A DNA stretch of 64,000 bases. Origin: Gemmatimonadota bacterium (GTDB taxonomy: Bacteria > Gemmatimonadota > Gemmatimonadetes > Palauibacterales > Palauibacteraceae). The notes below the pieces were generated by a model, which had not been told where the DNA came from, searched no databases, and was given only the letters and a program-made list of their open reading frames with translations. Position numbers and translations under genes: made by a program. Positions 48,310-64,000 of the stretch are shown piece by piece; the stretch's first letter is position 1; each line of letters opens with the position of its first letter. The stretch spans positions 2,233,204 to 2,297,203 of the forward strand of contig OZ242312.1 in the NCBI GenBank assembly GCA_965207805.1, given 5' to 3'.

Positions 48310-51300
48310 GGTTCCACGCTCCCCCGCGCCATGCCCGGAGCCGCCGGCCCGGAGCGGCCGCCGAGGCCGTATCCCGGCGTCGGCTGGAGCGCGGCCGGAT
48401 CGCGGCGCTCGGGCTGCGGGCCCGGGTCGGGCCCCACGGACACGGATGGCTCGACCAGAACCGAATATACGACCGGCACGACGATCAGCGTGAGGAAGGT
48501 CGCGGAGATGAGGCCGCCGATCACCGCGACGGCCAGGGGGGCGCGGAGGTCGGCCCCGGCCCCCAGCCCTGCGGCGAGCGGGAGCAGCCCGACCACGGTC
48601 GTGATCGTCGTCATCACGATGGGACGGAGCCTCAGCCGGCCCGCTTCAAGGATCGCCGACCGCTTCGGCAGCCCCGCCCGCCTCCGCTGGTTGATGAAGT
48701 CGACCTTCACGATGGCGTCGTTGACGACGATGCCGATGAGGATCACGAGCCCGATGCCGCTCATCGCGTTGAGGCCGTCCCCGGCGATCCAGAGCGCGGT
48801 GACCGCCCCGATCGCCGCCAGCGGCACCGCGGTCAGGACGACGAGCGGCTGCACGAGCGACTCGAACTGGGCGGCCATGATGAGGAAGACGAGGGCCAGC
48901 GCGAGCGCGAAGGCGAAGGTGAGCGAGCGAAAGCTGTCCTGCATCTCCTCGTTCTCGCCGCCGACGCGCACGGTCGTGAGGGCCGGCCGCGGGATGTCCG
49001 CGATCGCGGCCTCCACCTCCCGGACCGACGTCCGGAGCCCGCCCTCGGCCACGTCCGCGAGCACCTGGATCGTGCGGTTCTGATCCTCCCGCCGGATTTC
49101 GACCGGGCCGAACCCCTGCCGAACCGTCACGAGTTCCCCGATCGGCACGCCCTGCAGCCGAAGCGCAAGCACCCTGTCGAGTTCCCGCCGGGCCGTCTCC
49201 GGGATCGTGACGCGGATGTCGACCTTGTCGGCGAATACCGAGTACGCGTTGTTCGTCTCCGACCCCCGGAGGTAGTCCTCGATCGCCGTCGCGACCGAAG
49301 TCACCGTGATCTGGTGGCGGGCCGCCACCTCCCGATTGACTTCGATGACGAGTTCCGGCTGGGTACGAAGGAAGTCCAGCCGGACATCGGCCAGCGTCGA
49401 GACGCCCTCGAGCCGGGTCTCGATCGCCTCGGCGACCGGCACGAGCTCATCCAGTTCCCCGCTCTGCACCTTCACCGCGAGGTCCGCCTCCCCGACCGCC
49501 AGCGCCCTGCCGAGCGAGGTTGCCCGCCCGGTCTCGATCGTCACGAAGGCCGGATCCAGCTCGCTCCCCGCGAGCCGCTCGCGCAGTTCGGCGATCGCGT
49601 CGCGCGTCGGCCGCGACGACCCGGCGAGCTGGACATCGAGCGCCGCGTTGTTGAGTCCGGTCAGGTCGCGCGCGGCGAGTTCGCTGCCCCGGCTGCGGCC
49701 CACCCGGGTGAAGACGCCCGAGACGTCCGCCATGCCGAGCAGGAGCCGCTCCACGTCCCCGGCCGCCTCGTCCGTCGTCCTGATCGGCGTCCCCTGCGGG
49801 AGGTTGAGTTCGACCCAGAACTGCCGCTCGTCGACGCGCGGCATGAGGCCCCGCGGGAGAGATCCGGCGAGCATGACGGCGCCGGCCAGGGCGACGACGG
49901 CGATCGCGAGCACCTCCAACCGGTGCGCCAGCGCCCATTCGAGCGTCCGCTCGTACCGGCCCGCGAAACGGAGGAACGCGCGCTCGAAGGCCCGCAGGAA
50001 GGGACCGAAGAGCCGGCCCAGGATCCTGCCGCCGCCGGTCGCGACATCGACGCCCGTGAGCCGGACCGAGCGCCCCACGTAGGCGATCGCGCCCCCGACC
50101 CCTTGCACGCCCCCGACGGCACCCCGACGCACGGCGCGGGCGAACCGTCGCACGCGTCCCGGCCGCTCGGCTTCCGGCGCTTCGAGCCGCCCCGAAGGCG
50201 GCACTTCGCCGGCAGAGCCCGCGGCTTCCACTCCGCGCTTCCCGCGGGCCACCTGCGCGGCGAGCACCGGAAGCAGCGTGAGCGCCACGAGCAGCGAGGC
50301 GAGGAGCGAAAACGTCACTGCAAGCGAAAGGTCGCCGAAGAGCGCGCCCGCCACGCCCTCGACATACAGCACCGGACCGAACACGGCGATCGTGGTGAGC
50401 GTCGACGCCGTGATCGCCGCGGCCACTTCCCGGGCGCCCCGCCCGGCCGACTCCCGCCCGCTCCCGCCTGATTCCTCGCGGTGCCGGAAGATGTTCTCGA
50501 GCACCACGATGGAGTTGTCGACGAGCAGTCCGACCCCGAGCGCGAGGCCGCCGAGGGACATGATGTTGAGGCTGACGTCGAATGCGTAGCAGAGCGCGAA
50601 GGCAGCCATGACCGAGATCGGGATGGCGAGCCCGATCGCGAGCGGATACCTCGGATCGCGCAGGAAGAGAAAGAGGACGAGGAAAGCCAGCGCCCCGCCC
50701 AGCAGCAGGGCGGAGACCACGTTCGAGATCGCGTCCCGTATGAACGCCGCCTGGCTGGAGGCGATCTCGATCGATATTCCCGGGAATTCCTCCCGCAGTT
50801 GATCCAGCGTCTCGCGCACGCCGTCCGCCACGCGGACCGTGTTCGTCCCCGCCTCCTTGAACACCTGCAGCCCGATCGCGGGCTCCCCGTTGAAGCGTGC
50901 GATCGTCTCGAGGTCCGCGATCGTGTCGACGACCGTCGCGACGTCGGCCAGCCGCACGGGACGGGCCCCGACCCCGCGCGGCCGCGCGATGACGACGTCG
51001 AGCAGTTCATCGACCTCCCGGAACTGTCCCAGCGTGCGCAGGCTGTACTCGAACCGGCCCCGCTGGATCGTGCCGCCGGGCGCATTGTAGTTCGCCTGGT
51101 CGAGCGCGTTCGAGATCTCGCTGAGCGAGACCTCGTGCACATCGAGGTATTCCGGGTCCACGATGACCCGCAGCTCCCGCTCGGGCCCGCCCGTAAGCCC
51201 CGCCAGCGACACGCCGTCCAACTGCTCCAGGCGGCGCTTGAAGACGACCTCGGAGAGATCCCGCAGGTTCCGCAGGTCCGCCCCGCTCACGGCGAGGGTC

Positions 51301-51716
51301 ATGATCGGATCGCTCGTCGGATCCGATCTCAGAATCGTGGGCCGCTCCGAGCCATCGGGGAGGAGGTCGGACAGGTTGTCCAGCTTCTCCCGCGTGTGAA
51401 GGGTCGCGAACTCCATGTCCGTGCCCCACGCGAACTGGAGCTGCACGAGCGATTGCCCCTCCCGCGAACGCGAGGAGATGCTTCGCGCCCCGGGGATCGA
51501 GTACAGCCGCTGCTCGATGGGTTCCGTGATGAAGCGCTCGACCTCCGCGGGCCCCGCGTCCGAATACGTCGTCCACACGGAGAGCGTCGGGAAGGCGACG
51601 TCCGGCAGAAGATCGATCGGCAGACGGAGAAACGACACCACACCCAGCACGCCGATGCCCACATAGAGCATCGCCGTCGCCACCGGCCGTCGAAGCGAGA
51701 TGTCGGGGAGCGCCAC
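48306..51716 (-). CDS. RND efflux transporter permease (HAE1/AcrB-MdtB-like), proximal of tandem pair
   Basis: 1136 aa, beginning MALPDISLRRPVATAMLYVGIGVLGV. Its stop overlaps the start of the downstream RND gene. Confidence 0.9.
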   Translation of the reverse strand: MALPDISLRRPVATAMLYVGIGVLGVVSFLRLPIDLLPDVAFPTLSVWTTYSDAGPAEVERFITEPIEQRLYSIPGARSISSRSREGQSLVQLQFAWGTDMEFATLHTREKLDNLSDLLPDGSERPTILRSDPTSDPIMTLAVSGADLRNLRDLSEVVFKRRLEQLDGVSLAGLTGGPERELRVIVDPEYLDVHEVSLSEISNALDQANYNAPGGTIQRGRFEYSLRTLGQFREVDELLDVVIARPRGVGARPVRLADVATVVDTIADLETIARFNGEPAIGLQVFKEAGTNTVRVADGVRETLDQLREEFPGISIEIASSQAAFIRDAISNVVSALLLGGALAFLVLFLFLRDPRYPLAIGLAIPISVMAAFALCYAFDVSLNIMSLGGLALGVGLLVDNSIVVLENIFRHREESGGSGRESAGRGAREVAAAITASTLTTIAVFGPVLYVEGVAGALFGDLSLAVTFSLLASLLVALTLLPVLAAQVARGKRGVEAAGSAGEVPPSGRLEAPEAERPGRVRRFARAVRRGAVGGVQGVGGAIAYVGRSVRLTGVDVATGGGRILGRLFGPFLRAFERAFLRFAGRYERTLEWALAHRLEVLAIAVVALAGAVMLAGSLPRGLMPRVDERQFWVELNLPQGTPIRTTDEAAGDVERLLLGMADVSGVFTRVGRSRGSELAARDLTGLNNAALDVQLAGSSRPTRDAIAELRERLAGSELDPAFVTIETGRATSLGRALAVGEADLAVKVQSGELDELVPVAEAIETRLEGVSTLADVRLDFLRTQPELVIEVNREVAARHQITVTSVATAIEDYLRGSETNNAYSVFADKVDIRVTIPETARRELDRVLALRLQGVPIGELVTVRQGFGPVEIRREDQNRTIQVLADVAEGGLRTSVREVEAAIADIPRPALTTVRVGGENEEMQDSFRSLTFAFALALALVFLIMAAQFESLVQPLVVLTAVPLAAIGAVTALWIAGDGLNAMSGIGLVILIGIVVNDAIVKVDFINQRRRAGLPKRSAILEAGRLRLRPIVMTTITTVVGLLPLAAGLGAGADLRAPLAVAVIGGLISATFLTLIVVPVVYSVLVEPSVSVGPDPGPQPERRDPAALQPTPGYGLGGRSGPAAPGMARGSVEP

Positions 51717-51747
51717 GGTCAGGCGACCTGCATGCGGCGGCGTTCGG

Positions 51748-53145
51748 TCATGGGCTGCCGGGCCCGCTCTCGAGGTACTCGGCGAGACTGGACCACGTGA
51801 TCCGGTAATCGTACTGCCGCTGGATCAGATCGGTCTCGGCCCGCTGCACCGCGTCGATCGCCTGCTGGAGCTCCGTGAAGCTCACGGTCCCGAGCCGGTA
51901 ACGCTCCTGCTGCATCTCGAGACGCTCGCGCGAGATCGCGTACACGCGCTCGAGCAGATCCAGCGTCTGAGCCAACTGTGAAATGTCGTCGCCGAACCGC
52001 CGCACATCGCGCTCGATCTCCAGCCGCCGACGTCGTAGATCCTCCTCGGCCTGCCGCCTGGCGGCAGACGCCTGGGCGTTCTCCCGTTCACGCTGGAAGC
52101 CGTCGAAGAGGCTCCAGGATGCCGTGATACTGAAACCGTGACTCGTGTCGCCCGGGTCGAACTGCCAGAACGAGTCCTCGGGACCGAAGTTCTCGCTACG
52201 GCTCCATCCCAGATTCACGCTGACCTGCGGCAGGTAGCGGGCGCGGGCGGTCCACAACGACGCGGCGGCCGCGGCGCGCTCCGCGTCGAGCGCCGCAAGT
52301 TCCGGATCGGAGGTCACGGCGGTCTGAACAACGAGGTCGATATCCGGGATGCCCTCGGGCATGCCGTCGTCGCCCGTGAGCACGAGGCCGTCGCCGGTGT
52401 CGGGCGGCAGACCCATCGATACCACGAGTTGGCGCAGCCCGGCGCGCAACTGGTTTTCTTCGGCGGCGAGGGCAATCCGCGCGTTCAACAGGTTCCCCTC
52501 CGCGGCGAGCAGATCCGTTCGTTCCACCGCCGCGATCTCGTACCGCCGGCTGGCGATCTCGAGTTCGAGTTCCCGGTCCGCGATCTGAGTTCGCGTGAGT
52601 TCCAGCAGTTCCTGTCGCCGCAGGGCCTCGAGGAAATCGCGGCGCACCGCAAGCACCACCTCGCGCTGCCGGTCGTCGTAGTATCGCTGCGCGGCGCGAA
52701 GACTTGCCGCGGACCGCGAGATCTCGGAGAAACGCCGTCCGCGATCCAGGACGACCCAGCTCAGGCCCAGCGTCTGCCTCGCGTTCTGGCTCGAAGACGT
52801 GAGGACCCCCGGAAGCGTCTCCGACAAACCCTCCTCGCCGACGAACGTAGTCCGCGAGAAACTCGACCGACCGAGGTCGGCGTTCACGCTGGCCGTGGGG
52901 AGGAACGCTCCCCAGGCAGCCAATCGGTCGGCGCCCGCCCGATCCGCCTGCGTCCGGGATATCCGCAGGACCGGGCTCTCGGTGAGGGCGATCCGAATCG
53001 CTCTCGTGATGTCGATCGTGTCCGGGAGCGCCGGACGCTGAGCAACGGAGGGCGTCGGGGCGGTGAGACCTCCGACCGCCAGGGCGGCGGCGAGCGCCCC
53101 CGCCCTGCGAAACCGGGGCCGGCGCCCTCCGGCTCCGCGCCTCAC
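51748..53145 (-). CDS. TolC-like outer membrane efflux protein (OMF)
   Basis: Signal peptide, two repeated coiled-coil/beta-barrel halves, and typical OMF heptad regions. The ATG overlaps the MFP stop. Confidence 0.8.
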   Translation of the reverse strand: MRRGAGGRRPRFRRAGALAAALAVGGLTAPTPSVAQRPALPDTIDITRAIRIALTESPVLRISRTQADRAGADRLAAWGAFLPTASVNADLGRSSFSRTTFVGEEGLSETLPGVLTSSSQNARQTLGLSWVVLDRGRRFSEISRSAASLRAAQRYYDDRQREVVLAVRRDFLEALRRQELLELTRTQIADRELELEIASRRYEIAAVERTDLLAAEGNLLNARIALAAEENQLRAGLRQLVVSMGLPPDTGDGLVLTGDDGMPEGIPDIDLVVQTAVTSDPELAALDAERAAAAASLWTARARYLPQVSVNLGWSRSENFGPEDSFWQFDPGDTSHGFSITASWSLFDGFQRERENAQASAARRQAEEDLRRRRLEIERDVRRFGDDISQLAQTLDLLERVYAISRERLEMQQERYRLGTVSFTELQQAIDAVQRAETDLIQRQYDYRITWSSLAEYLESGPGSP

Positions 53146-54392
53146 CGCGAACCGCCCGTGGAGCCGTTCGGCGTGTCGTCCGGGGCGGGTTCCGCTGGCG
53201 TAGCCAGGTCGTTGTGGTTCTCGATCCGCACCTGGGCGTCGTGCGTGAGGGTGGCGTGGCCGTCGACGAGCACGACTTCGCCGCCCGCGGGCACGAAGGT
53301 GTCATCTCCCTCCGGGTTGGGGATGATCTCGACCTGCGTGTCGTTCTCAAGGCCGAGCGTCACGTACTCCCACTGGGCGCGTCCCGTCTCCGAACCCGGG
53401 GCTCCCGGCTCGAAGACGAACACGACCTGGCGCCGGCTCCGCTCGACGACCGCTTCCTTCGGCACGAACGTCCGGTCCGCGAGCTGACGGCCGGCGATCC
53501 GCACGTTCCCCGGCATGCCCGGCACGATTCGAGCCTCGGGATTCGACAGGCGCACCGTGACCCGCGCCGTCTGCGTCTCGGGATCGACCAGCGGATTCAC
53601 GCTCACCACCCGCCCCTCGAAGATCTCTCCCCGCAGCGCGGGGAACGTGGCCGTCGCCACCCGTCCCACCTCCACGAGCGGGAGTTCGGAATGCAGGACC
53701 TCGGCGTCGATATCGATCTCGGAAAGGTCGACGATGGTCGCGATCGAATCGCCCGACCGGACCCGGCTGCCGTGCGCCACGCCGAGGTTCGCCACCAGCC
53801 CGGCGAAGGGGGCGACGATCCGCGTCTTTCCAAGTTCGTAGCGCGCTTCCGCGAGTTGCGCCTCATAGTCCGGGAGGCTCACCCGAATGCGGGCCTGTTC
53901 GGCGCGGGCCAGCCGGACCGAATCCGGCAACTCGTCATCGAAGAGCACCCGGTCGAGATACTCCGCTTGCGCGCGCGCCACGCCGGCTTCCGCCCGCTGC
54001 GCCCGGAGTTCGTAGAGCGCCGGGTCGATCCGCGCCAGGAGCTGGCCCGCCTGCACCTGCACGCCCTCCTGTACCGGCACCGCGGTCACCGGCCCGTCGA
54101 CTTCCGAGTGGAGCGCCGCCCTGCGCAGAGACGCGGCCCGCCCGCTCGCGGTGACCCATAGCACGAACGTGTCGCGCTGGATCACGGCCCCTTCGACGGG
54201 AAGGAAAATGTCCGTCGCGAAGGCCGCCGCCGAGGCTGTCCCCCGCACGGCCTCGGCCACGGAATCGGCCGCGGCGTCGCCGAAGCTCTGCGGCTCGTCC
54301 TCCCCGTCCTCGTTCAGCCGCATGAAGATGCCCACGACGGCCGCGCCCGCGACGAGCAGGACGATCAACGTGACCCAATGACGTGCCTTCAT
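53142..54392 (-). CDS. RND efflux periplasmic adaptor (membrane fusion protein, HlyD family)
   Basis: N-terminal TM anchor MKARHWVTLIVLLVAGAAVVG, followed by coiled-coil, lipoyl and beta-barrel regions (...RIVAPFAGLV...). Confidence 0.85.
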   Translation of the reverse strand: MKARHWVTLIVLLVAGAAVVGIFMRLNEDGEDEPQSFGDAAADSVAEAVRGTASAAAFATDIFLPVEGAVIQRDTFVLWVTASGRAASLRRAALHSEVDGPVTAVPVQEGVQVQAGQLLARIDPALYELRAQRAEAGVARAQAEYLDRVLFDDELPDSVRLARAEQARIRVSLPDYEAQLAEARYELGKTRIVAPFAGLVANLGVAHGSRVRSGDSIATIVDLSEIDIDAEVLHSELPLVEVGRVATATFPALRGEIFEGRVVSVNPLVDPETQTARVTVRLSNPEARIVPGMPGNVRIAGRQLADRTFVPKEAVVERSRRQVVFVFEPGAPGSETGRAQWEYVTLGLENDTQVEIIPNPEGDDTFVPAGGEVVLVDGHATLTHDAQVRIENHNDLATPAEPAPDDTPNGSTGGSR

Positions 54393-54673
54393 AAGCCTCG
54401 CACCGCTGTGTTCGGTTCGCGTCGTCGACCAGTCGGAGTGGCCGCGGCAAGCTCAATCTATCGCAAGACTGTCAACCGGCTATCAACCATCAGAGATCGA
54501 GACTTTGACACGGGAACGTGTGCCGACCGTTGTACGGCCCGCGGACCCGGCCACATCACCCCGGGGGGAGCTTAGACGGGCGGGCGCCCTCGATCAACTA
54601 ATTCAATAGTAGAACGGAGAGAGGCGTAGAGGGGCGAGAGCGTAAGGGGATGCGGCGCGCCGATCCAAACGGC

Positions 54674-54705
54674 GGGAGGGCGGCATCGCGCGATGCCGCC
54701 CTCCC
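54674..54705 (-). terminator. perfect 15-bp GC-rich hairpin immediately 3' of the secreted aminotransferase gene
   Basis: GGGAGGGCGGCATCG-CG-CGATGCCGCCCTCCC, followed on the minus strand by a GUUUGG short U-run. Coordinates are approximate. Confidence 0.5.
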
Positions 54706-54711
54706 CGTACG

Positions 54712-55878
54712 TCAGATCCAGTCCTTCTTGCGGAAGTCGGTCATGACCTCGGCGAGCTTCTCCATGTCCGACGGGAGGCCCATCGAGAGCCGGCTCCAGT
54801 CCGTCATCGGCGGGAACGGGCGGCCCACGTTGAACCCGGCCTCGAACATGCGCTCGTTGTAGGTCGCGAGTTCGCCCTTGATCCGGTGCATGACGAAGTT
54901 CGTGTGGCTCGGCAGGACTTCGATGTCGAGTTGGGCAAGGGCGTCGTACATGATCGCCTTCGCTTCGTCGTTCGTCTTCACGCTCTTCGCGAAGAACTCG
55001 TCGTCGGCGAGCGAGGCGACGGCGGCCACGCCAGCGACGTGGTTGGGCGCGTTCCGCGTCGCAAACGGGAGGACGCGCTGGACGGTGGCCTCGTGCGCGA
55101 TCCCGTAGCCGAGCCGGATCCCGGCCATCGCGTACACCTTCGAGAAGGTGCGGGCGACGATCAGGTTCGGATGGCGCTCGATGAGCGGGACGAACGTCTC
55201 GTAGCCCGGATCGTCCGCGAGTTCGAAGTACGCCTCGTCGACGAGGAAGAGGTGCTGCTCGCCCTCGTCCCGGATCCAGTCCATGATCGGCCTGGTCGCG
55301 GTGAGCGTGCCGGTGGGGTTGTTCGGGTTGCAGAAGTAGATCACGCTGGGCGCGGACGACTTCGCGACCTCTTGGCGCATGCGGTCGATGTCGTGCGCGT
55401 AGTCGCTCGTGAGCGGCACGGTGACGTGATCGTAGGCGAACGGCTGCGAGTACCTGGGGACGTCCTCGTACGTCGGCTCCGCGTAGATGAGGCGGCCACC
55501 GTCCGCCGCCCAGGCCGCCGACGCGATGCGCAGGATCTCGGTCGAGCCGGAGCCGAAGAAGAGCTGGCCGGGCTTGACGCCGAGTCGCGCCACGAGCGCC
55601 TCGCGCACGAGTTCGCCGGTCGCGCCGGGATAGCGGTTCGCCTCGTCGAGCCCGTCGACGATCGCCTGCCGCGCCGACGGGGCAATGCCGAGCGGGTTCT
55701 CGTTCGAACTCAACCGGACGGGCCCGTTGTAGTCACGTCCCGGTCGGCGGGGGTTGAAGATGGTGTCGAGGCCGCGCGCCGCCGTCGCGCCCGCGAGGGG
55801 TGCGGCAAGGGGTGCGGCGGCGATGCCGGCGACGCCGGCACCCGTGAGTCCGGTTCGAAGAAACGCCCTTCGCTTCAT
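54712..55878 (-). CDS. class II (HisC-like) PLP aminotransferase with twin-arginine (Tat) signal peptide
   Basis: Start MKRRAFLRTGLTGAGVAGIAAAPLAAPLAGATAARG (RR-x-FL Tat motif), then HisC-like region ...LSSNENPLG...YFCNPNNPTG...RTFSKVYAMAGIRLGY. AGGGAGG SD upstream. Confidence 0.75.
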   Translation of the reverse strand: MKRRAFLRTGLTGAGVAGIAAAPLAAPLAGATAARGLDTIFNPRRPGRDYNGPVRLSSNENPLGIAPSARQAIVDGLDEANRYPGATGELVREALVARLGVKPGQLFFGSGSTEILRIASAAWAADGGRLIYAEPTYEDVPRYSQPFAYDHVTVPLTSDYAHDIDRMRQEVAKSSAPSVIYFCNPNNPTGTLTATRPIMDWIRDEGEQHLFLVDEAYFELADDPGYETFVPLIERHPNLIVARTFSKVYAMAGIRLGYGIAHEATVQRVLPFATRNAPNHVAGVAAVASLADDEFFAKSVKTNDEAKAIMYDALAQLDIEVLPSHTNFVMHRIKGELATYNERMFEAGFNVGRPFPPMTDWSRLSMGLPSDMEKLAEVMTDFRKKDWI

Positions 55879-55996
55879 GTGGCCTCCCTGGTGTTCCGAG
55901 GACGCCGCCGCCGCGGGGAGGCGGCGCCCGCCCATGCTTCGTTGAAACATGGCCCGCAGGACGCCGAACGTCCAGCGCCGCCGGCTCATCCCGCGT

Positions 55997-57328
55997 TCAG
56001 CGGGGAGGCGGAGGATCCCGGCGCGGGGGCGGCTCTTCAGGCGGCTCGCCCCGCCCGGATCTTCGTTCCGTGACGAGGAGGCGGACGCCGGAAATGGCGC
56101 CGTCCATCAGAGAGTCGATCGCCGCCCGCAGTTCTTCCCCGCGCAGGTTTGCCAGCTGCTCCCGCACGTCCTCGGGGAGCCGCCGGATGAGCTGTGCGTG
56201 GCCGCGCTCCCGCCATTCGCGGCGGCGTGGTTCGGCCTCGGTGCGCTCGGCATCCGGCGATACCGCCTCTCCCTCCCCGAACGCGCCGACCGCCGTGAGG
56301 AACGGGAGCGCGAACGCGCTGTCGAGGGTCGCGGCTCGCTCGTAGTGCGCCTCGGCCTCTTCCGGGTTGCCGGCGCGGTGCAGCGCGTTGCCTCGGTGAA
56401 AGGCGGCCAGGGCCTCCAGGTTCCGCGTGCCGAGGTGGCTGATGCGAACGACCTCGCCCGGCGGTGGCGTGCCTGAGAGGTTGGCCGCGAGCCGCACGGT
56501 CAGCGTGTCCACGAGTTCGAACACATCGGCGCCCCGGGCGAAGTCCGCCGACGCGATGGTCCCGTTCTCGAGTTCGATCAACTGTGCGTCGATGCGCATG
56601 TCCTCCGGCGACCCCGTTACGCTGCCCCAAAGCAGCATGCGGGCGCCGCTTCCGCGCGCCACGGTCAGCGCCAGCGCCTCCGGGATTTCCTCCTCCTCGG
56701 AGACCCCGCCCTCCATGAGGAGGTCGTAGAGGCTCTGTCGGCCGACAACACGCAGACCGGGGAGTTGCGCCAGGTTCGTCGTGAGCAGGTCGGCGAGACC
56801 CGAGCCGAGCCATTCCAGTTCCGGATCGGGCACGTTGTTCCGGAAGGGCAGGACCGCGAGCGAGTTCGGGCCCAGGTCGGGAACCAAACCCGCGAAACTC
56901 AGCGCCTCGCCGCCGACATCCGCCCCGTCCGCGGCCGCGGCGGGCGCCGCTGTCTCCACGCTTCCGGCCTGCGCCGGTACTGCGGTCGCGATCCGATAGG
57001 TGCCGATCGCGCCCAGGGAGGCCAGCGTGAGCAGGAGCCAGGCTTCCGCACGGCGAATCCGCTGGGGGCCGCGTTCACCGTGAAACCAGCCGATGACGAG
57101 AAATGCGGGGAATCCGAGGATGGCGAGGAAGACGACCGTGTCGAGGATCTTCCTCGAGAATGCGTAGGTCCCGACGATGAAGTCGGTGATCTCCACGCCG
57201 AGCCAGGCCGCGCCCACGTACACGAGCGCGATCTGCACCATGCGCCGCTTCCGGATCTTCTCCAGGATCGACGCGCCGTTCCCCTCGCTGTTCATCATCT
57301 TCCGCCCGTCCCGATCTCCGGAGCCCAC
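55997..57328 (-). CDS. membrane-anchored TolB-N-like/TPR protein (CadC-like architecture without DNA-binding domain)
   Basis: KIRKRRMVQIALVYVGAAWLGVEITDF juxtamembrane/TM segment, then TolB_N-like region SLAVLPFRNN...LADLLTTNLAQLPGLRVVGRQS, TPR-like helices, and a Pro/Arg/Glu-rich tail. Start could be Met11/12. Confidence 0.55.
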   Translation of the reverse strand: MGSGDRDGRKMMNSEGNGASILEKIRKRRMVQIALVYVGAAWLGVEITDFIVGTYAFSRKILDTVVFLAILGFPAFLVIGWFHGERGPQRIRRAEAWLLLTLASLGAIGTYRIATAVPAQAGSVETAAPAAAADGADVGGEALSFAGLVPDLGPNSLAVLPFRNNVPDPELEWLGSGLADLLTTNLAQLPGLRVVGRQSLYDLLMEGGVSEEEEIPEALALTVARGSGARMLLWGSVTGSPEDMRIDAQLIELENGTIASADFARGADVFELVDTLTVRLAANLSGTPPPGEVVRISHLGTRNLEALAAFHRGNALHRAGNPEEAEAHYERAATLDSAFALPFLTAVGAFGEGEAVSPDAERTEAEPRRREWRERGHAQLIRRLPEDVREQLANLRGEELRAAIDSLMDGAISGVRLLVTERRSGRGEPPEEPPPRRDPPPPR

Positions 57329-57418: not shown

Positions 57419-60400
57419 CTAGCGGTCGTTATCTCGATCGGGCTCATCCCAGAACCCGAAGCCTTCCTTTCGCACAACCTCCAGCGGGATCGTATGGGTT
57501 TCGTCGCCAATCGTGATCGCCACCGTGTAGGTGCCGGGATCGGCCAGGCCCCCCCGGCCGCCGCCGAAGAACCGGCGGAAAACCGACATGCCGCCCCGCT
57601 CCCGGATGGCCTCGCCCACCTGCTGGAAGACCTCGCGCATGGCCGCCGGGTCGGCGCCGCTCTGGGCGGCCGCGGCGGCAGCCATGGCCGCGGTGCGGCC
57701 TCCTCCCCGGCCTCCGCCCTGCCCCGCCCGGCCGGGCGGCGGATAGCGCTCGGCCGGCCGCTCCTGCCAGCTGGCGCCCGCGCCGCCTCCACCGCCCCCG
57801 CCACCGGTGAACATGCGGATGATGGCGCCCTGGTTACCGCCCTGCATCATTTCGAGCACCTGGTCCATCGTCTCCCGCGCGATCCCTTCGTGCTCGACCA
57901 GCGAGTCCCCCACCGTCTGGTAGAGCCGCGCCGTGCGAAGGCTGTCCAGCCGATCCGCGGGTGACGGCTCCTGTGGCGCGCTCCGCCGGTTGAACGTCCA
58001 CCGCACGCGCTGCACCCCGGCCGAGGCCGAGCCGTTCAGCGTCTGCACCGTGTCGCCCGCCGCGTTCAGGATCGCGATGGAGGCCTGGGGGCGGTTGCCG
58101 CCTCGCGCGGCCACCATGCCCGCCATGCCCGCGGGCATCGCAAAGGCAGGGGCCGCCGCCGCGCCCGCAGCCTCCTCTTCGGCCTCCTCCTCGGTCTCTT
58201 CAGCCTCTTCCTCGGCCTCTTCTTCAGCCTCTTCCTCGGCGGCCTCGGCGAGCGCTTCCGCAACATCCTCCGGGACGTAGTAGGAGATCTCGGCCCCGTA
58301 GCGGCCGGCATCGCCCTGGAAGGTGCTCTGCGCGATGAACTCGCCGCCCACCGGCGCGTCCCCGAACTGGATCGCCGTCTTCGGCTGGAACACCGTCACC
58401 GCCTCCGGCAGGCGCCCGCCGTCGAGTTGCTGCAGGAGCGAGATGTCCGCCACGAAGATGGAGCGCCCGTGCGTTCCCGCGATGATCTCGCTCTCGCGCG
58501 GATGGATCTTCAGATCGTGTACGGGCACCGTGGGCAAGCCGTTCATGAAGCGCGACCACGAGCCGCCCCGGTCGGTGGACACGTAGGCCCCCACGTCCGT
58601 CCCCACGAAGAGGAGATCCGGGTTCACCGGGTCTTCCCGGACCACGTGCACGAAGTCCGGCGCCCCGGTCGGAAGGTTCGACGAGATCGAGCGGAAGGTC
58701 TCCCCGGCGTCATCCGTCACGTAGACGTACGGCGCGTAGTCGTCACGCCGGTGGTTGTCGAACGTCACGTAGAAGCGGTTCGGGTCATGGCTCGAGGGCT
58801 CGATCCGGCTCACGTACGTCCCCTCCGGAACGCCGTCGAAGCGATCCGTGAGTTCGATCCACTCCGCGCCCTCGGGCGTCCGCCACACGCGGCCGTCGTC
58901 CGTCCCCGCGTAGAGTTCGCCTTCGTTGAGCTTCGACTCGGCGAGCGAGACGATCGTGGCGAAGTTCTCCGCGCCCGTGACGTCCGGCGTGATGCCGCCC
59001 GTCGTGTTGTACGCGATCTCGATCTTCTCCGGATCGGCGTAGGTGAGGTCGTCCGAGATCGGCGTCATCTCATCCGTGTCGTAGGTCCACTTCAGGACCC
59101 GGTTCGCCCCGATGTACAACGTCTGCGGGTCGTGGGGCGACAGTTCGAGCGGCGTGTTCCAGTTGAACCGCATGTCGAATAATGCAGAGTCCCGCGCGAC
59201 GAGGGCCTGCAACTCGTCGATCTGCGCCACGTTGCCGGCCGGGGGATTGTCGGGGTCGTCGCCCGTCAGGATCGCGATCGAGTCGCGCAGCGTCTGCGTG
59301 CGCTCGCGCCAGTCCGGGTGCTGAAGCTGGTGGCGCTCGCCCGTGCGCGTGTTCCGCCAGTAGATCCGCCCCTGCTGCGATTCCCCGAACACGATGTCCG
59401 GGTTCGTCGGATCCTGCGGCGCGTAGAAGCCGTCGCCGCCCCCGATCGAATACCACATGTGATTGTCGATGGAGCCGCCGGCGCGGGCGCTCGGCCCGCA
59501 CCACGTATAGTTGTCCTGCAGTCCGCCGCACACGCGATAGGGCGTGTCCATGTTGTAGCTGACCGCATAGAACTGTCCCATCGGGATACGGTTGGGGAAC
59601 TCGAAGTTGCCGCCCCGGTCCCATGTGATCGCGATCCCGCCGTCGTTGCCCAGTATGAAGTGGTCCGGATTGATCGGATTCCACCACAGTGCGTGATAGT
59701 CGACGTGCACGCCCTGGGCCGGGTTCCCCACCGTGCGGCCCCCGTCCCGGGAGAAGAAGAGGGAAGACCAGTAGATGAAGTCCGGATCGTCCGGCGACAC
59801 CCAGACGCCCGAATAGTAGAAGGGCCGCGAGTTGTTCGAGTTCATGAACTCCCACGTCGCGCCGCCGTCGGCGGAGCGGTACAGGCCGGAGGCGTGACGG
59901 TCCCCGTTCTCATCCGCCTCCTCCGGGGCCTCCGCCTCGACCATCGCGTACATCACCTGCGGGTAGCTCGGGGCGATGACGATCTCGAGCCGCCCCAGCA
60001 TGGTCTCCGGCAGGCCGTTGCCCTCCACCTTCTCCCATGTGTCGCCGGCGTCGGTGGACTTCCAGATCGCGCTCCCCGGGCCGCCGCTGTTGAAGAAGTA
60101 CGGACCGCGCACGCGCTCCCAGCTCGTAGCCCACAGGATGTCCGGATTCTGCGGATGCATGTCGACGTCCACGAAGCCCGCCTTGTCGGAGACGAAGTTC
60201 ACGCGCTCCCACGTGTCGCCGCCGTCCGTCGTGCGGTAGAGCCCGCGCTCTTCGTTGTCTCCCCACGGGTGGCCGAGCGCGGCGACGTACACCCAGTCGG
60301 CCTTCGTCGGGTGGACGACGATGCGGCCGATCGCCTGCGTGTCCTCGAGCCCCTTCAGCTCCCAGGTGAGCCCGCCGTCGACGGACTTGTAGATGCCGCC

Positions 60401-60763
60401 TCCGGGCGAGATCGAGTTGCGCGAGTCTTCCTCGCCGGTCCCGGCCCACACGATGTCCGGGTTGCTCGGCGCGATCGCGAGGTCGCCCATCGAGACGACG
60501 CGCTCGTTGTCGAAGACGGGCCGGAAGGTCGTCCCGTTGTTCGTCGTCTTCCAGATGCCGCTCGACGCACCCGCGATGAAGAAGGTCGCGGTGCCGGGAA
60601 TGCCTTCGATGTCCGTGACGCGCCCGGCCATGTTCGCCGGGCCGATGGAACGCCATTCCATCTCGGCCATGAAGTCTTCATCGGCGACGGCCTCCTGCGC
60701 GGCCGCCGGGGCCGGGAGGACGGTGGTCGCGAAGAGGACGGGGAGAAACGCACGCTTCAGCAT
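57419..60763 (-). CDS. secreted BNR/Asp-box repeat (sortilin/Vps10-like) glycosyl-hydrolase-family protein, 1114 aa
   Basis: Signal peptide MLKRAFLPVLFATTVLPAPAAAQEA. Multiple SxDxGxTW BNR repeats (KSVDGGLTW, RTTDGGDTW, KSTDAGDTW, RSADGGATW, STDRGGSW). C-terminal low-complexity AEEEAEEEAEEEAEETEEEAEEEA and G8 runs. AGGAG SD upstream. Confidence 0.8.
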   Translation of the reverse strand: MLKRAFLPVLFATTVLPAPAAAQEAVADEDFMAEMEWRSIGPANMAGRVTDIEGIPGTATFFIAGASSGIWKTTNNGTTFRPVFDNERVVSMGDLAIAPSNPDIVWAGTGEEDSRNSISPGGGIYKSVDGGLTWELKGLEDTQAIGRIVVHPTKADWVYVAALGHPWGDNEERGLYRTTDGGDTWERVNFVSDKAGFVDVDMHPQNPDILWATSWERVRGPYFFNSGGPGSAIWKSTDAGDTWEKVEGNGLPETMLGRLEIVIAPSYPQVMYAMVEAEAPEEADENGDRHASGLYRSADGGATWEFMNSNNSRPFYYSGVWVSPDDPDFIYWSSLFFSRDGGRTVGNPAQGVHVDYHALWWNPINPDHFILGNDGGIAITWDRGGNFEFPNRIPMGQFYAVSYNMDTPYRVCGGLQDNYTWCGPSARAGGSIDNHMWYSIGGGDGFYAPQDPTNPDIVFGESQQGRIYWRNTRTGERHQLQHPDWRERTQTLRDSIAILTGDDPDNPPAGNVAQIDELQALVARDSALFDMRFNWNTPLELSPHDPQTLYIGANRVLKWTYDTDEMTPISDDLTYADPEKIEIAYNTTGGITPDVTGAENFATIVSLAESKLNEGELYAGTDDGRVWRTPEGAEWIELTDRFDGVPEGTYVSRIEPSSHDPNRFYVTFDNHRRDDYAPYVYVTDDAGETFRSISSNLPTGAPDFVHVVREDPVNPDLLFVGTDVGAYVSTDRGGSWSRFMNGLPTVPVHDLKIHPRESEIIAGTHGRSIFVADISLLQQLDGGRLPEAVTVFQPKTAIQFGDAPVGGEFIAQSTFQGDAGRYGAEISYYVPEDVAEALAEAAEEEAEEEAEEEAEETEEEAEEEAAGAAAAPAFAMPAGMAGMVAARGGNRPQASIAILNAAGDTVQTLNGSASAGVQRVRWTFNRRSAPQEPSPADRLDSLRTARLYQTVGDSLVEHEGIARETMDQVLEMMQGGNQGAIIRMFTGGGGGGGGAGASWQERPAERYPPPGRAGQGGGRGGGRTAAMAAAAAAQSGADPAAMREVFQQVGEAIRERGGMSVFRRFFGGGRGGLADPGTYTVAITIGDETHTIPLEVVRKEGFGFWDEPDRDNDR

Positions 60764-62019: not shown

Positions 62020-63294
62020 CTATTGCATCTCGTCGAGCGCCTGGTACACCAGCGTGCGCAGCTTCGCGTGGTCGTCCACGCCGCCCGTCGGGATGAGCTG
62101 CGTGAAGTAGACGACGACGAGATCCTCGGCGGGATCCACCCAGTACGTCGAGTGGTATGCCCCGCCCCACCCGTACTCGCCCACCGAGCCGGGAGTTCCG
62201 CGCGCTCCGAGATCGGCCAGCACGCTGAACCCGAGGCCGAAGCCGACGCCGCCGCCCCAGTTGAACCGGTCCCCAACGTGGTTGACGGTCATGAGGTCGA
62301 CGCTCTTGCTCGACAGAATGCGGGCGCCGTCGAGTTCGCCGCCGTTCAGCATCATCTGCAGGAAGCGGGCGTAGTCGTGCGCGGTGGAGAGGAGCCCCGC
62401 CCCGCCGGAGAAGCTCGTCCGCGGGCCATCGACGTATGCCCCCTGGCCGACCATGCCGCCCGGGTCGGGCGCGGGCGAGAGTCCGTCCTCGGAGGCCGAG
62501 TACACGACGCTCAGCCGATCACGCTTCTCCTCCGGGAGGTAGAAGTGCGTGTCCATCATACCCAGCGGCTCGAAGATCCGCGTGCGGAGGAAGTCGTCCA
62601 GCGGCTCGCCCGACACTTCCTCGACGAGGGCGCCGAGGATGTCCGTCGCGTAGCCGTACACGAAGCGCTCACCCGGCTGCGCGTCCATGGGGAGGGCGGC
62701 CATGCGCCGTACCGTCTCCCGGACCGGCTCGTCGCGGTGCGCAAAATACCAGCCCTGGATGTCGGCCTCCGCCCACAGGTCGGCCGCCGGACCGCCCCCG
62801 TAGCCGATCCCGGCGGTGTGCGTGAGCAGGTCCCGGATCGTGATCGGCCGGTTCGCGGGCACGATGTCGTATCCCCCCGCCCCGTCGGCGACCGCGACGG
62901 TCGTCTCCATGTACTCGGGCAGATAGCGGCCGAGCGGGTCGGAGATCAGGAGATCCCCTTCCTCCTGCAGGATCATGACGCCGACGCTCACGATCGCCTT
63001 CGTCTGCGAGGCGATGCGGAAGATGTCGTCCGTCTCCATGGGGTCGCCGGCTGCGACGTCCCGGTGGCCGACCGCCTCCAGGTAGGAGACCTCGCCCCCG
63101 CGCGCGACGAGGGCGACGGCGCCGGCCAGCTCCCCCTCCTCCACGTAGGAGTCCAGGGCGCCGCTGAGCCGCTCGAGGCGATCCGCGTCCGACTCGGCCG
63201 CCGTCGACCCCGGGACGCCCGCCACGGCAAGCGCCACGCCGACCACGAACACCGGGAGTACGCCCCACAGGAGGCGCTTGGGCATTCTGTTCAT
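62020..63294 (-). CDS. serine hydrolase, beta-lactamase/PBP4-like (class C fold)
   Basis: Signal peptide [26 protein letters not shown] and an S-x-x-K motif (RIASQTKAI). Start could be Met37. Confidence 0.8.
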
Positions 63295-63331
63295 CCTTCG
63301 TCCTCTGTCTTCCATCTGTCGCGGTCCCCCG

Positions 63332-64000
63332 TCAATCGAGCGCGGGGTGCCGCGTGTGCCAGTCCGTCGCCGCCTGGAAGGCGTGCGCCACACTCAGGAT
63401 CTTGTCGTCGGCGAACAGATCGCCGATCAGGGTCGTCGTGAGCGGCTGATCCGCCTCCTCGCCCTCGGGCCCGAGCGGGCCGAAGCCGTACTGGACGACC
63501 GCCGCGGGGTGTCCCGTCTCGTTCGTGAGCCCCACCTCACCCGAGCCGGTGGCGAACATGTCGAAGCCCTCCATCGCCTCGGCCATGCGCTTCATCACGA
63601 TGAGGCGCCGCCGCTGCGCGTGCACGTAGTCCATCGCGAGGCCCTCTCGCCCCCGGCGAAACCGCGTGAAGTCGCGCTCCTGCGTCTCGCTGAGCCCTTC
63701 CGGCACCGGGGGCAGTTCTCCGCCCGGGGCCACGTGGAAGTCGAAGGCCGACGACGACTCGGCGCCCAGCGAACTCGCCGCCTGGGCGGGCAGCTCGCGC
63801 ATGAGCCGCGGCCGCGCACCGAGCTCCTCCAGTTTCTCGACGAAGGAGTGCGGCGCGTCTTCCGTGTACCCGATCGAGAGCGCGCCCAGGTCCGGATTCC
63901 GCTCGAAACGGAACGGCATCGTGATTGAGGCGGGGTCCTTCTCGTCCGCGCCGTGGATCTCGTTGAACACGAGCGCGCAGTCCTCGATCGTGCGGCACAT
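63332..64000 (-). CDS. amidase-signature-family enzyme, C-terminal fragment (gene continues past window end)
   Basis: C-terminal region ...[56 protein letters not shown] typical of AS amidases. The N-terminus lies outside the window. Confidence 0.65.

What the first reader, a model, noticed from the sequence alone, without database searches (positions are those of the whole stretch)
54712..55878. HisC-like PLP aminotransferase carrying a twin-arginine export signal
The N-terminus MKRRAFLRTGLTGAGVAGIAAAPLAAPLAGATAARG is a textbook Tat signal (RR-A-F-L, hydrophobic h-region, AxA-like cleavage context). It is fused to an otherwise standard class II aminotransferase core (SSNENPLG, NPNNPTG, the Lys-containing RTFSKVYAMAGIRLGY). 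Histidinol-phosphate/aromatic aminotransferases are cytoplasmic. A Tat-exported, pre-folded PLP enzyme implies a periplasmic transamination activity, for example detoxification, cofactor or cell-wall-related chemistry, which is rarely characterised. A strong dedicated terminator follows it.
Basis: partly seen in the sequence, partly recalled or inferred. Interest (0 to 1): 0.5.

Follow-up and report, generated by a model that had tools for sequence, protein, structure and literature searches.

The report
Tat-exported HisC-like periplasmic aminotransferase
This gene from a sponge-associated Gemmatimonadota bacterium encodes a vitamin-B6 aminotransferase that really does carry a conserved twin-arginine export signal, but it belongs to a very large, already recognised clade of exported HisC-like transaminases (one characterised member, PtaA of Pseudomonas), so it is a new member of a known kind whose substrate is still unknown.

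Summary
The minus-strand CDS 54712-55878 encodes a 388-aa fold-type I PLP aminotransferase. Its first ~33 residues form a canonical Tat signal (K-R-R-A-F-L-R, a 26-residue Gly/Ala/Thr-rich uncharged h-region, AxA sites, and a basic residue in the c-region).

The start codon is secure. GGGAGG lies 4 nt upstream, several orthologous ORFs begin exactly at M-x-R-R, and there is no in-frame ATG/GTG before the catalytic core.

The signal is a family trait. It is present in 114 of the 120 closest homologues and in about 120 of the 150 best 50%-identity cluster representatives. The family consensus is [S/N/T]-R-R-x-[F/W]-L-[K/R], and the Arg codons vary synonymously.

The protein is not HisC. It scores below the TIGR01141 cut-off, lacks residues that canonical HisC conserves, and has no his-operon context. 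It is also not a PtaA or PRK09105 equivalog.

Its closest solved structure is 3LY1, the mature form of a signal-bearing relative.

The precedent is known: PtaA is a Tat-exported periplasmic transaminase, and the Tat signal of P. aeruginosa PA2531 has been validated experimentally.

Relatives sit recurrently next to exported amidases, peptidases and a dicarboxylate/amino-acid symporter. This suggests periplasmic amino-acid or peptide catabolism, but that is inference.

The "strong terminator" is a strong hairpin with only a 3-U tail.

The parts
54712..55878 (-). Complete CDS (388 codons plus TGA stop) of the precursor HisC-like PLP aminotransferase
   Evidence: PF00155 E 1.2e-38. 94-98% identical orthologues occur in Candidatus Palauibacter genomes.
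55780..55878 (-). Region coding for the predicted Tat signal peptide (residues 1 to ~33). n-region MKRRAFLR; h-region TGLTGAGVAGIAAAPLAAPLAGATAA (26 uncharged residues, mean Kyte-Doolittle 1.25); candidate AxA cleavage sites AGA|T and ATA|A; Arg35 in the c-region
   Evidence: AF2 pLDDT is below 50 for residues 1-36. The cleavage site is inferred by the -3/-1 rule and was not predicted by a dedicated tool.
55858..55875 (-). Twin-arginine motif K2-R3-R4-A5-F6-L7 (consensus Z-R-R-x-F-L)
   Evidence: Conserved in 114/120 and 120/150 homologues. Arg codons vary synonymously.
55883..55888 (-). Shine-Dalgarno GGGAGG, 4 nt upstream of the ATG
   Evidence: Conserved in all related loci.
54715..55779 (-). 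Mature catalytic domain (residues ~34-388), fold-type I PLP aminotransferase
   Evidence: AF2 pLDDT is mostly above 90 from residue 50 onward. The best PDB match is 3LY1 (TM 0.91-0.93, rmsd 1.8 A), with sequence E 4.5e-71.
55138..55140 (-). Codon of Lys247, the predicted PLP Schiff-base lysine (equivalent to E. coli HisC Lys214)
   Evidence: Alignment with E. coli HisC. Invariant in the family.
54674..54705 (-). Perfect 14-bp G+C-rich hairpin 9 nt after the stop codon, followed by GCCGUUUGG. A probable, atypical transcription terminator or RNA-stabilising hairpin
   Evidence: dG -39.5 kcal/mol for the 65-nt stretch, z -2.8. Not called by the consensus terminator scan.
63335..64000 (-). C-terminal 222 aa of an amidase-signature enzyme that runs off the window end. 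Its orthologue in L021 carries an RR signal, and homologues lie next to or overlap the aminotransferase gene in other lineages. A possible functional associate, not shown
   Evidence: 76.6% identity to the L021 amidase..
55997..57328 (-). Upstream syntenic neighbour: a 443-aa membrane protein with a weak TPR match (its relatives give a weak CsgG hit), separated by a 118-bp gap. Probably a separate transcription unit
   Evidence: Synteny is seen in L002/L003, L060 and L021. It is broken by an inserted restriction-modification block in L001.

Best explanation
The gene encodes a precursor that binds PLP and folds (probably as a dimer, like its HisC-fold relatives) in the cytoplasm. The precursor is then exported folded through the Tat translocase by its N-terminal K-R-R-A-F-L signal, which is probably cleaved after an AxA site near residue 31-33. 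In the periplasm the enzyme would carry out ordinary ping-pong transamination: an alpha-amino group passes to PLP bound at Lys247, and the resulting PMP is discharged onto a 2-oxo-acid acceptor.

It is a member of a large, ancient clade of exported HisC-like transaminases whose only characterised member is PtaA of Pseudomonas. It is not the histidine-biosynthesis enzyme.

The most likely physiological role in this organism is an inference from recurrent gene neighbours in relatives. The enzyme would process free amino acids, or amino-acid-like moieties with a free alpha-amino group, that exported peptidases and amidases release in the periplasm. It would convert them to 2-oxo acids and/or funnel amino groups into an importable amino acid such as glutamate.

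Shown here: catalytic residues intact, conserved Tat motif, secure start codon, distinct clade.
Inferred: actual export, signal cleavage, dimer state, substrate class, identity of the acceptor.

The confidence of 0.8 applies to the exported-periplasmic-transaminase core. The amino-acid/peptide catabolic role on its own deserves only about 0.45.
For: Enzyme identity: PF00155 at E 1.2e-38. The PLP ligands Lys247, Asp214, Tyr217, Asn187, Arg255, Tyr83 and Arg363 align with E. coli HisC K214, D184, Y187, N157, R222, Y55 and R335. They are at least 85% conserved in both the exported clade and canonical HisC. The AF2 model has pLDDT 86, and the HisC-fold structure 3LY1 is its best match.

Tat signal: the motif, a 26-residue uncharged h-region of low hydrophobicity, and a basic c-region. 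The family consensus is [S/N/T]RRx[F/W]L[K/R], found in 114/120 and 120/150 homologues. Arg codons vary synonymously and the SD is conserved. Orthologous ORFs begin at M-x-RR. Residues 1-36 are disordered in the model.

Distinct clade: all 19 canonical, signal-less HisC-type sequences fall basal, and the RR-bearing sequences form one block in an NJ tree. HisC Tyr20, Asp85, Tyr113 and Pro242-Tyr243 are not conserved. The TIGR01141 score is 232.7, below the cut-off of 276.55.

Precedent: PtaA is exported with bound PLP by Tat and occurs in non-pyoverdine producers (PMC6206403). The Tat signal of PA2531 was validated (PMC6085387). 3LY1 corresponds to the mature part of an RR-bearing protein.

Role: an exported (RR-motif) amidase lies directly upstream of or overlaps the gene in L030 and L032. 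It lies nearby in L039 and L021, and 7.5 kb upstream on the same strand in the window. Other neighbours are peptidases M24 (L004, L066), M14 (14-bp gap, L066), S9 (L061, L030, L032, L021), M49 (L057) and S15 (L063). Amidohydro_3 occurs in L060 and L066. An SDF symporter lies directly upstream in L063 and nearby in L004.
Against: No export experiment and no dedicated Tat predictor could be run. Tat genes are not in the window, and the rest of the genome could not be searched.

The gene appears monocistronic, and no operon partner is conserved across the whole family. Neighbourhoods differ beyond about 55% identity. The peptidase and amidase association was not tested statistically, and Gemmatimonadota genomes may simply be rich in peptidases.

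A periplasmic 2-oxo-acid acceptor, and therefore PLP regeneration, is unexplained even for PtaA (PMC6206403).

I did not verify that a separate canonical hisC exists in this genome. Palauibacterales are reported to be often histidine auxotrophs (PMC10469786).
Confidence: 0.8

Rival explanations
1. It is a PtaA-type tailoring enzyme. In the periplasm it transaminates the free alpha-amino group of one specific exported secondary metabolite, such as a siderophore or peptide natural product, rather than bulk amino acids.
For: PtaA is the only characterised family member and does exactly this. The query matches the PtaA model at 203.8 bits. The PtaA authors proposed roles in other periplasmic biosynthetic pathways for homologues in non-producers (PMC6206403). 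An RND efflux operon lies immediately downstream in conserved synteny and could in principle export a product.
Against: The score is far below the PtaA equivalog cut-off of 500. None of 10 diverse RR-bearing relatives reaches it either. There is no NRPS-sized or other biosynthetic gene among the window ORFs. Neighbours in relatives are hydrolases and peptidases, not biosynthetic genes. Tandem arrays of 5-8 paralogues in Alphaproteobacteria fit many substrates better than one metabolite.
Confidence: 0.15
2. The N-terminal segment is not cleaved. It works as a Tat-inserted membrane anchor, so the enzyme is tethered to the outer face of the cytoplasmic membrane rather than soluble in the periplasm.
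For: The h-region is long (26 uncharged residues). Some Tat substrates are known to keep their signal as an anchor (general knowledge). No cleavage predictor could be run.
Against: AxA-type sites (AGA, ATA) follow the h-region in the query. Relatives end their signals in A-x-A, for example ANAQ and AHAQ. The h-region is Gly/Ala/Pro-rich with low hydrophobicity (1.25), which is poor for a stable transmembrane helix. The crystallised relative 3LY1 is soluble without this segment.
Confidence: 0.1
3. It is a cytoplasmic histidinol-phosphate or aromatic aminotransferase. The RR segment would be untranslated, non-functional, or a chance resemblance.
For: The best NCBIfam hit by E-value is hisC (232.7 bits). 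Several database sources name homologues 'histidinol-phosphate aminotransferase'. Arg363, the equivalent of HisC Arg335, is retained.
Against: The score is below the hisC cut-off. No alternative start exists that keeps the core (direct reading). The SD and start are conserved. The RR motif is conserved across hundreds of clusters down to about 30% identity, with synonymous codon turnover. HisC-conserved Tyr20, Tyr113 and Pro242-Tyr243 are lost. There is no his-operon context. Export of relatives has been shown experimentally.
Confidence: 0.04

Closest known systems
PtaA, periplasmic transaminase A of Pseudomonas fluorescens and P. aeruginosa (NCBIfam NF051461; Ringel et al. 2017, cited via PMC6206403). 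The Tat signal of the P. aeruginosa aminotransferase PA2531 was validated in PMC6085387; that PA2531 is the PtaA orthologue is my recollection and was not checked here.
   Same: HisC-like fold-type I PLP aminotransferase with an N-terminal twin-arginine signal. Exported folded with PLP. Acts in the periplasm. Usually encoded on its own outside biosynthetic clusters. Homologues were already noted in species that make no pyoverdine.
   Different: The query reaches only 203.8 bits against a 500-bit equivalog cut-off. It comes from Gemmatimonadota (Candidatus Palauibacter). No pyoverdine or NRPS context is visible. The substrate is therefore almost certainly different and is unknown.
PDB 3LY1, 'putative histidinol-phosphate aminotransferase' YP_050345.1 of Pectobacterium (Erwinia) atrosepticum, a structural-genomics entry with no assigned function
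   Same: Closest solved relative: E 4.5e-71 over query residues 51-388, including the C-terminal FRKKxWI. Foldseek TM 0.91-0.93, rmsd 1.8 A, 37% identity. An RR-bearing representative of a related 50%-identity cluster shows that the crystallised chain is the mature part of a signal-bearing precursor.
   Different: Gammaproteobacterial, about 37% identical, and also uncharacterised, so it gives the fold but no function.
Canonical HisC, histidinol-phosphate aminotransferase (TIGR01141; E. coli b2021, PDB 1FG7/1GEW)
   Same: Same fold. Same PLP-binding residues (K214, D184, Y187, N157, R222, Y55) and the same Arg335 equivalent.
   Different: HisC is cytoplasmic with no signal and sits in his operons. 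The query scores below the cut-off, is 23% identical, has no his neighbours, and lacks HisC-conserved Tyr20, Asp85, Tyr113 and Pro242-Tyr243. That these residues recognise the substrate is recalled from the HisC structural literature and was not tested here.
NCBIfam NF006580 (PRK09105) 'pyridoxal phosphate-dependent aminotransferase' subfamily
   Same: Its alignment to the query spans residues 2-381, so the model includes the signal region. It is the best-scoring model for most of the 10 diverse RR-bearing relatives tested.
   Different: 231 bits against a cut-off of 444. Neither the query nor any of the 10 diverse relatives qualifies, so the curated subfamily covers only a small part of the exported clade.
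PvdN, a Tat-exported class V PLP enzyme of pyoverdine maturation
   Same: Another PLP enzyme exported folded by Tat and active in the periplasm (PMC6206403, PMC6085387).
   Different: Different family (Aminotran_5) and different chemistry (oxidative decarboxylation to succinamide). It is an analogy only.

Membership tests
Fold-type I PLP aminotransferases, class I/II (Pfam PF00155) | Profile match above the gathering threshold | tested here: met
   133.7 bits against 19.7, covering residues 54-377.
Fold-type I PLP aminotransferases, class I/II (Pfam PF00155) | Schiff-base lysine and PLP-binding Asp, Tyr, Asn and Arg residues | tested here: met
   K247, D214, Y217, N187, R255, T244, S246 and Y83 align with E. 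coli HisC K214, D184, Y187, N157, R222, T211, S213 and Y55. They are at least 85% conserved in both clades.
Fold-type I PLP aminotransferases, class I/II (Pfam PF00155) | Two-domain alpha/beta aminotransferase fold | tested here: met
   AF2 pLDDT 86 and pTM 0.84. Top 50 PDB matches are all HisC-type aminotransferases, apart from a few entries of the homologous threonine-phosphate decarboxylase CobD.
HisC, histidinol-phosphate aminotransferase (TIGR01141 equivalog) | Score at or above the curated cut-off | tested here: not met
   232.7 bits, below 276.55.
HisC, histidinol-phosphate aminotransferase (TIGR01141 equivalog) | Residues conserved in canonical HisC (E. coli Tyr20, Asp85, Tyr113, Pro242-Tyr243, Arg322) | tested here: not met
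   Query has I40, T113, V140, R275-N276 and N350 at these positions. Y113 is 94% and P242/[F/Y]243 are 88% conserved in canonical sequences but not in the exported clade. Their functional roles are recalled, not tested.
HisC, histidinol-phosphate aminotransferase (TIGR01141 equivalog) | Cytoplasmic protein with histidine-biosynthesis gene context | tested here: not met
   It carries a Tat signal. Neighbours are a TPR membrane protein, a Sortilin/BNR protein and an RND efflux operon, with no his genes.
PtaA, pyoverdine transaminase (NF051461 equivalog) | Score at or above the curated cut-off | tested here: not met
   203.8 bits, below 500.
PtaA, pyoverdine transaminase (NF051461 equivalog) | Twin-arginine signal on a HisC-like PLP transaminase | tested here: met
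PtaA, pyoverdine transaminase (NF051461 equivalog) | Organism produces pyoverdine (substrate: gamma-linked N-terminal Glu of pyoverdine) | not testable with these tools
   No NRPS-sized gene among the ORFs of the 64-kb window. The host is Gemmatimonadota. The whole genome was not searchable.
NF006580 / PRK09105 aminotransferase subfamily | Score at or above the curated cut-off | tested here: not met
   231.4 bits, below 444, although the alignment spans residues 2-381.
Tat (twin-arginine) pathway substrates | Z-R-R-x-hydrophobic-hydrophobic motif near the N-terminus | tested here: met
   K2-R3-R4-A5-F6-L7. The motif is conserved family-wide.
Tat (twin-arginine) pathway substrates | Uncharged, weakly hydrophobic h-region, followed by a c-region with a small-x-small site and often a basic residue | tested here: met
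   26 uncharged residues with mean Kyte-Doolittle 1.25; AGA and ATA sites; Arg35 (and direct reading). These rules were applied by hand; TatP and SignalP were not available.
Tat (twin-arginine) pathway substrates | tatA and tatC present in the genome | not testable with these tools
   No TatA-like motif in the window.
Tat (twin-arginine) pathway substrates | Tat-dependent export demonstrated | not testable with these tools
   Shown only for relatives: PtaA (PMC6206403) and the PA2531 signal (PMC6085387).

The most novel reading that the evidence does not exclude
The exported HisC-like clade, with several hundred clusters at 50% identity across Gemmatimonadota, Bacteroidota, Acidobacteriota, Alpha- and Gammaproteobacteria and others, would carry out a general and so far undescribed periplasmic amino-acid transamination metabolism. 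That metabolism would be coupled to exported peptidases and amidases. The enzyme family would have diversified by substrate, up to tandem batteries of 5-8 paralogues in Emcibacteraceae and Kordiimonadaceae. PtaA would be only one specialised offshoot. This would imply a periplasmic pool of 2-oxo-acid acceptors and a route of nitrogen and carbon acquisition that current models of bacterial amino-acid uptake do not include.
Probability: 0.35. Interest if true: 0.6.

Novelty: new member of a known kind. Interest (0 to 1): 0.33.

Why it matters
Automated annotation calls these proteins 'histidinol-phosphate aminotransferase'. That can falsely complete histidine pathways in metabolic reconstructions of uncultured lineages such as Palauibacterales, which are reported to be often histidine auxotrophs.

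The family shows that PLP-dependent transamination outside the cytoplasm is phylogenetically widespread, not a Pseudomonas curiosity. Its substrates and the source of the periplasmic amino acceptor remain unknown.

For this particular gene, the value is mainly correct classification plus a testable link to exported amidases and peptidases.

Tried and rejected
(1) Downstream or upstream alternative starts. Rejected: there is no in-frame ATG/GTG before the core, and the upstream extension is not conserved.

(2) The consensus promoter/terminator scan found nothing in 54300-56200. The hairpin was found only by folding.

(3) The primary PtaA paper (PMC5682972) is not held, so I relied on the review and on the P. 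aeruginosa Tat-substrate paper.

(4) Search for paralogues or a canonical hisC in the window. There is only a weak hit to another aminotransferase at 17.1-18.6 kb. The whole genome could not be searched.

(5) A TatA motif search in the window found nothing.

(6) TENA/THI-4 genes upstream of relatives (L058, L064) were considered as operon partners. Rejected: they have no signal peptides.

(7) The 377-aa downstream gene in L057 has a Sec-type signal but no family assignment, so it was uninformative.

(8) NCBIfam scans of the associated amidase gave only generic amidase/AtzE-like sub-threshold hits, so no substrate clue.

(9) The literature search for any other characterised periplasmic or exported aminotransferase returned only the PtaA/PvdN literature.

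(10) The PHROGs and PADLOC libraries and the phage and plasmid collections were not used, because nothing suggested mobile or defence elements for this gene.
Full report
**What is there**

The finding's coordinates hold a minus-strand CDS, 54712-55878, of 388 codons. The window has 69% G+C, and the ORF has GC3 0.92, typical of real genes here.

The mechanical ORF extends to 55989, but several results point to the ATG at 55878 as the start:
- GGGAGG lies 4 nt upstream.
- In 94-98% identical loci the upstream extension differs in length and sequence. It is absent in L008 and L023, where the ORF begins at MKRR.
- More distant loci (L002, L004, L058) also begin exactly at M-x-R-R.
- A GGAGG-type SD precedes this ATG in all 25 loci inspected.
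- Reading the DNA directly, there is no in-frame ATG or GTG between Met1 and Leu56. The TTG at Leu56 lies inside the conserved V-R-L-S-S-N-E-N-P core.

**The enzyme part**

Pfam gives Aminotran_1_2 at E 1.2e-38.

Alignment with E. coli HisC (taken from NC_000913) shows that the PLP ligands are kept. The Schiff-base lysine K247 corresponds to K214. D214, Y217, N187, T244, S246, R255 and Y83 correspond to D184, Y187, N157, T211, S213, R222 and Y55. R363 corresponds to R335.

An AlphaFold2 model built on 59 homologues has mean pLDDT 86 and pTM 0.84. Residues 1-36 are below 50, and the rest is mostly above 90. Foldseek against the PDB ranks 3LY1 first (TM 0.91-0.93, rmsd 1.8 A), followed by HisC and aromatic aminotransferase structures. 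The protein looks like a competent aminotransferase.

**The signal**

Residues 2-7 are K-R-R-A-F-L. After Arg8 come 26 uncharged residues rich in Gly, Ala, Thr and Pro (mean Kyte-Doolittle 1.25). Then come AGA and ATA small-x-small sites, and Arg35 follows. This is what Tat signals look like: long, weakly hydrophobic, with a basic c-region (general knowledge of Tat signal peptides). I could not run TatP or SignalP.

The stronger evidence is evolutionary.
- Among the 120 closest homologues (47-96% identity), 114 have RR followed by at least 12 uncharged residues. The other six are N-terminally truncated.
- An exhaustive HMMER search of 1.84 billion cluster representatives gave 1,231 clusters at E <= 1e-30. 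About 120 of the best 150, down to about 31% identity, carry the motif. Their consensus is [S/N/T]-R-R-x-[F/W]-L-[K/R], which is the textbook Tat consensus.
- The h-regions diverge freely while the RR-x-F core stays.
- The two Arg codons change synonymously among relatives (CGA AGG, CGA CGG, AGA CGA, CGA CGC, CGA CGT, CGC CGC, CGC CGA).

This is selection on a translated, functional motif.

**Not HisC, but a distinct exported clade**

The NCBIfam hisC equivalog scores 232.7 bits against a cut-off of 276.55. PtaA scores 203.8 against 500. PRK09105 scores 231.4 against 444, with the alignment running from residue 2, so that model includes the signal region.

In a neighbour-joining tree of 161 sequences rooted on E. 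coli HisC, all 19 signal-less canonical sequences sit at the base. These have the PYxPGK-type N-termini. The RR-bearing sequences form one contiguous block. The few unlabelled members inside that block are fragments, RK variants, or cases my regular expression missed. The tree has no support values.

Positions that canonical HisC conserves are not conserved in the exported clade. These are E. coli Y113 (94% conserved in canonical sequences), P242-[F/Y]243 (88%), Y20 and D85. From memory of the HisC structural literature, several of these contact histidinol phosphate. I did not test that.

There is no his gene nearby in the window or in related loci.

**Origin**

Genome-collection hits at 94-98% identity are all Candidatus Palauibacter, many of them MAGs from sponges. 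Palauibacterales are reported to be frequently auxotrophic for histidine (PMC10469786). That fits this gene not being a pathway HisC, and it warns that the gene may be miscounted as one.

**What is already known**

The pyoverdine review (PMC6206403) describes PtaA as a normal PLP transaminase that is unusual only in being active in the periplasm. PtaA is exported folded with its cofactor by Tat. It is present in species that cannot make pyoverdine, and for that reason it was given a general name. The review also notes that regeneration of PLP from PMP in the periplasm is unexplained.

The Tat signal of the P. aeruginosa aminotransferase PA2531 was validated with an amidase reporter (PMC6085387).

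The best PDB relative, 3LY1 (E 4.5e-71), is a structural-genomics entry. An RR-bearing representative of a related 50%-identity cluster, P0189, aligns its residues 36-379 with chain residues 7-349. The crystallised protein is therefore the mature part of a signal-bearing precursor.

A full-text search for any other periplasmic, exported or secreted aminotransferase returned only this literature.

Ten diverse RR-bearing relatives all fail the PtaA and PRK09105 cut-offs. Most of the clade therefore has no curated family and no known function.

**Transcription unit and context**

A perfect 14-bp G+C hairpin lies at 54674-54705, 9 nt after the stop. The 65-nt stretch folds at -39.5 kcal/mol with z -2.8. 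Only three U follow it, and the consensus scan reports no terminator or sigma-70 promoter.

The gene is 118 bp downstream of a 443-aa membrane protein with a weak TPR match. It is 320 bp upstream of an RND efflux operon: MFP 53142-54392, OMP 51748-53145, and pumps 48306-51716 and 45205-48309.

The order Sortilin/BNR, then TPR/CsgG-like, then aminotransferase, then (ECH), then RND is kept down to about 55% identity. In L001, however, a restriction-modification and SLFN block is inserted between the TPR gene and the aminotransferase. This suggests the aminotransferase is an independent unit.

Beyond that clade the neighbourhoods differ, but a theme recurs.
- Amidase: an amidase-signature enzyme with its own RR signal lies directly upstream of the aminotransferase in L030 and overlaps its ORF by 4 bp in L032. 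It lies nearby in L039 and in L021 (75% identical aminotransferase). The window itself contains the C-terminal 222 aa of that amidase at 63335-64000 on the same strand.
- Peptidases: M24 (L004, L066), M14 (14-bp gap, L066), S9 (L061, L030, L032, L021), M49 (L057) and S15 (L063).
- Other neighbours: Amidohydro_3 (L060, L066) and an SDF dicarboxylate/amino-acid symporter (L063, L004).

I did not test this enrichment against genome background.

**Most likely mechanism**

The sequence of events would be:
1. Cytoplasmic folding and PLP loading.
2. Tat export.
3. Signal cleavage near residue 31-33.
4. Periplasmic ping-pong transamination.

I put about 0.8 on this exported-transaminase reading.

The substrate class is inferred only from neighbours and from the paralogue arrays described below. 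I favour amino acids, or amino-acid-like moieties, released by exported hydrolases. The amino group would pass to a periplasmic 2-oxo acid. A PtaA-like role in tailoring one specific exported metabolite remains possible (about 0.15). An uncleaved membrane-anchored form is possible (about 0.1) and is a sub-case of the exported reading rather than exclusive of it. A cytoplasmic HisC reading is disfavoured (about 0.04).

**Seen in passing**

In MAGs of Emcibacteraceae, Kordiimonadaceae and an unclassified alphaproteobacterium (L024-L028), the exported aminotransferase occurs as head-to-tail arrays of 5-8 paralogues. Each has its own xTRR(D/E)WL signal. The five L024 paralogues I aligned are 38-68% identical to one another, with catalytic residues intact and variable pocket-region positions. 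This looks like a substrate-diversified battery. It is the most interesting lead that came out of this work.

**Verdict**

The feature is a new member of a known, though barely characterised, kind rather than a novelty. Interest is modest, at about 0.33.

Noticed in passing
L024 523-10353; L025 1903-10246; L028 4417-12899; L027 3102-8980; L026 8-6019: Head-to-tail tandem arrays of 5-8 paralogous Tat-signal HisC-like aminotransferase genes in Emcibacteraceae, Kordiimonadaceae and an unclassified alphaproteobacterial MAG. Each gene has its own xTRR(D/E)WL N-terminus. The five L024 paralogues aligned are 38-68% identical to one another with catalytic residues intact. The arrays are flanked by thioredoxin-like and large helicase/nuclease-like ORFs, which I named from their N-terminal sequences only and did not scan against any family library. 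This suggests a substrate-diversified periplasmic transaminase battery.
   Followed up: partly
window 63335-64000 (-); L030 2015-3814; L032 4852-6711; L039 3977-5866; L021 4689-6485: An amidase-signature enzyme (PF01425) of about 600 aa with its own twin-arginine N-terminus. In L030, L032 and L039 the signal ends in a lipobox-like VAAC. It recurs next to the aminotransferase and overlaps its ORF by 4 bp in L032. The window holds only its C-terminal 222 aa. NCBIfam gives only generic sub-threshold amidase/AtzE-like hits.
   Followed up: partly
L061 4608-5845 (same in L062): A class V aminotransferase (Aminotran_5, the PvdN family) lies directly upstream of the HisC-like gene. Its reading frame begins with a Tat-like MRRRNFLQRMTAAAATP, which is then interrupted by an in-frame TGA before the called start. 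This could be a frameshift, a pseudogene or an assembly error. It echoes the PvdN/PtaA pairing.
   Followed up: no
window 45205-54392 (-): RND efflux operon immediately downstream: MFP 53142-54392, outer-membrane factor 51748-53145, and two tandem RND pumps at 48306-51716 and 45205-48309. Its position relative to the aminotransferase is syntenic down to about 55% identity.
   Followed up: partly
window 55879-55989 (-): The mechanical ORF extends 37 codons upstream of the real start (MSRRRWTFGV...). The extension is not conserved among 94-98% identical genomes and is absent in L008 and L023. It contains an RRR by chance and could mislead start prediction.
   Followed up: yes
L001 1695-7746: In one Palauibacter genome (85% identical orthologue), three genes are inserted between the TPR gene and the aminotransferase: a Type ISP restriction-modification gene (N6_Mtase plus Type_ISP_C, 1124 aa), a 300-aa ORF, and a SLFN/AlbA_2-HATPase_c_4 gene. 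This looks like a small defence island.
   Followed up: no
L058 4556-5936; L064 3997-5347: Two tandem TENA/THI-4 (thiaminase II-like) genes lie just upstream of the aminotransferase in two Gemmatimonadota contigs. They have no signal peptides, so adjacency is probably coincidental. It is noted because Palauibacterales are described as thiamine producers.
   Followed up: partly
window 57419-60763 (-) and 62020-63393 (-): A 1114-aa Sortilin/BNR-repeat protein with a Sec-type signal and a long Glu/Ala- and Gly-rich low-complexity segment near its C-terminal third. Also a signal-anchored serine hydrolase of the beta-lactamase/AcmB-like family (SxxK motif). Together with the amidase and the aminotransferase, these make this stretch rich in exported enzymes.
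   Followed up: no
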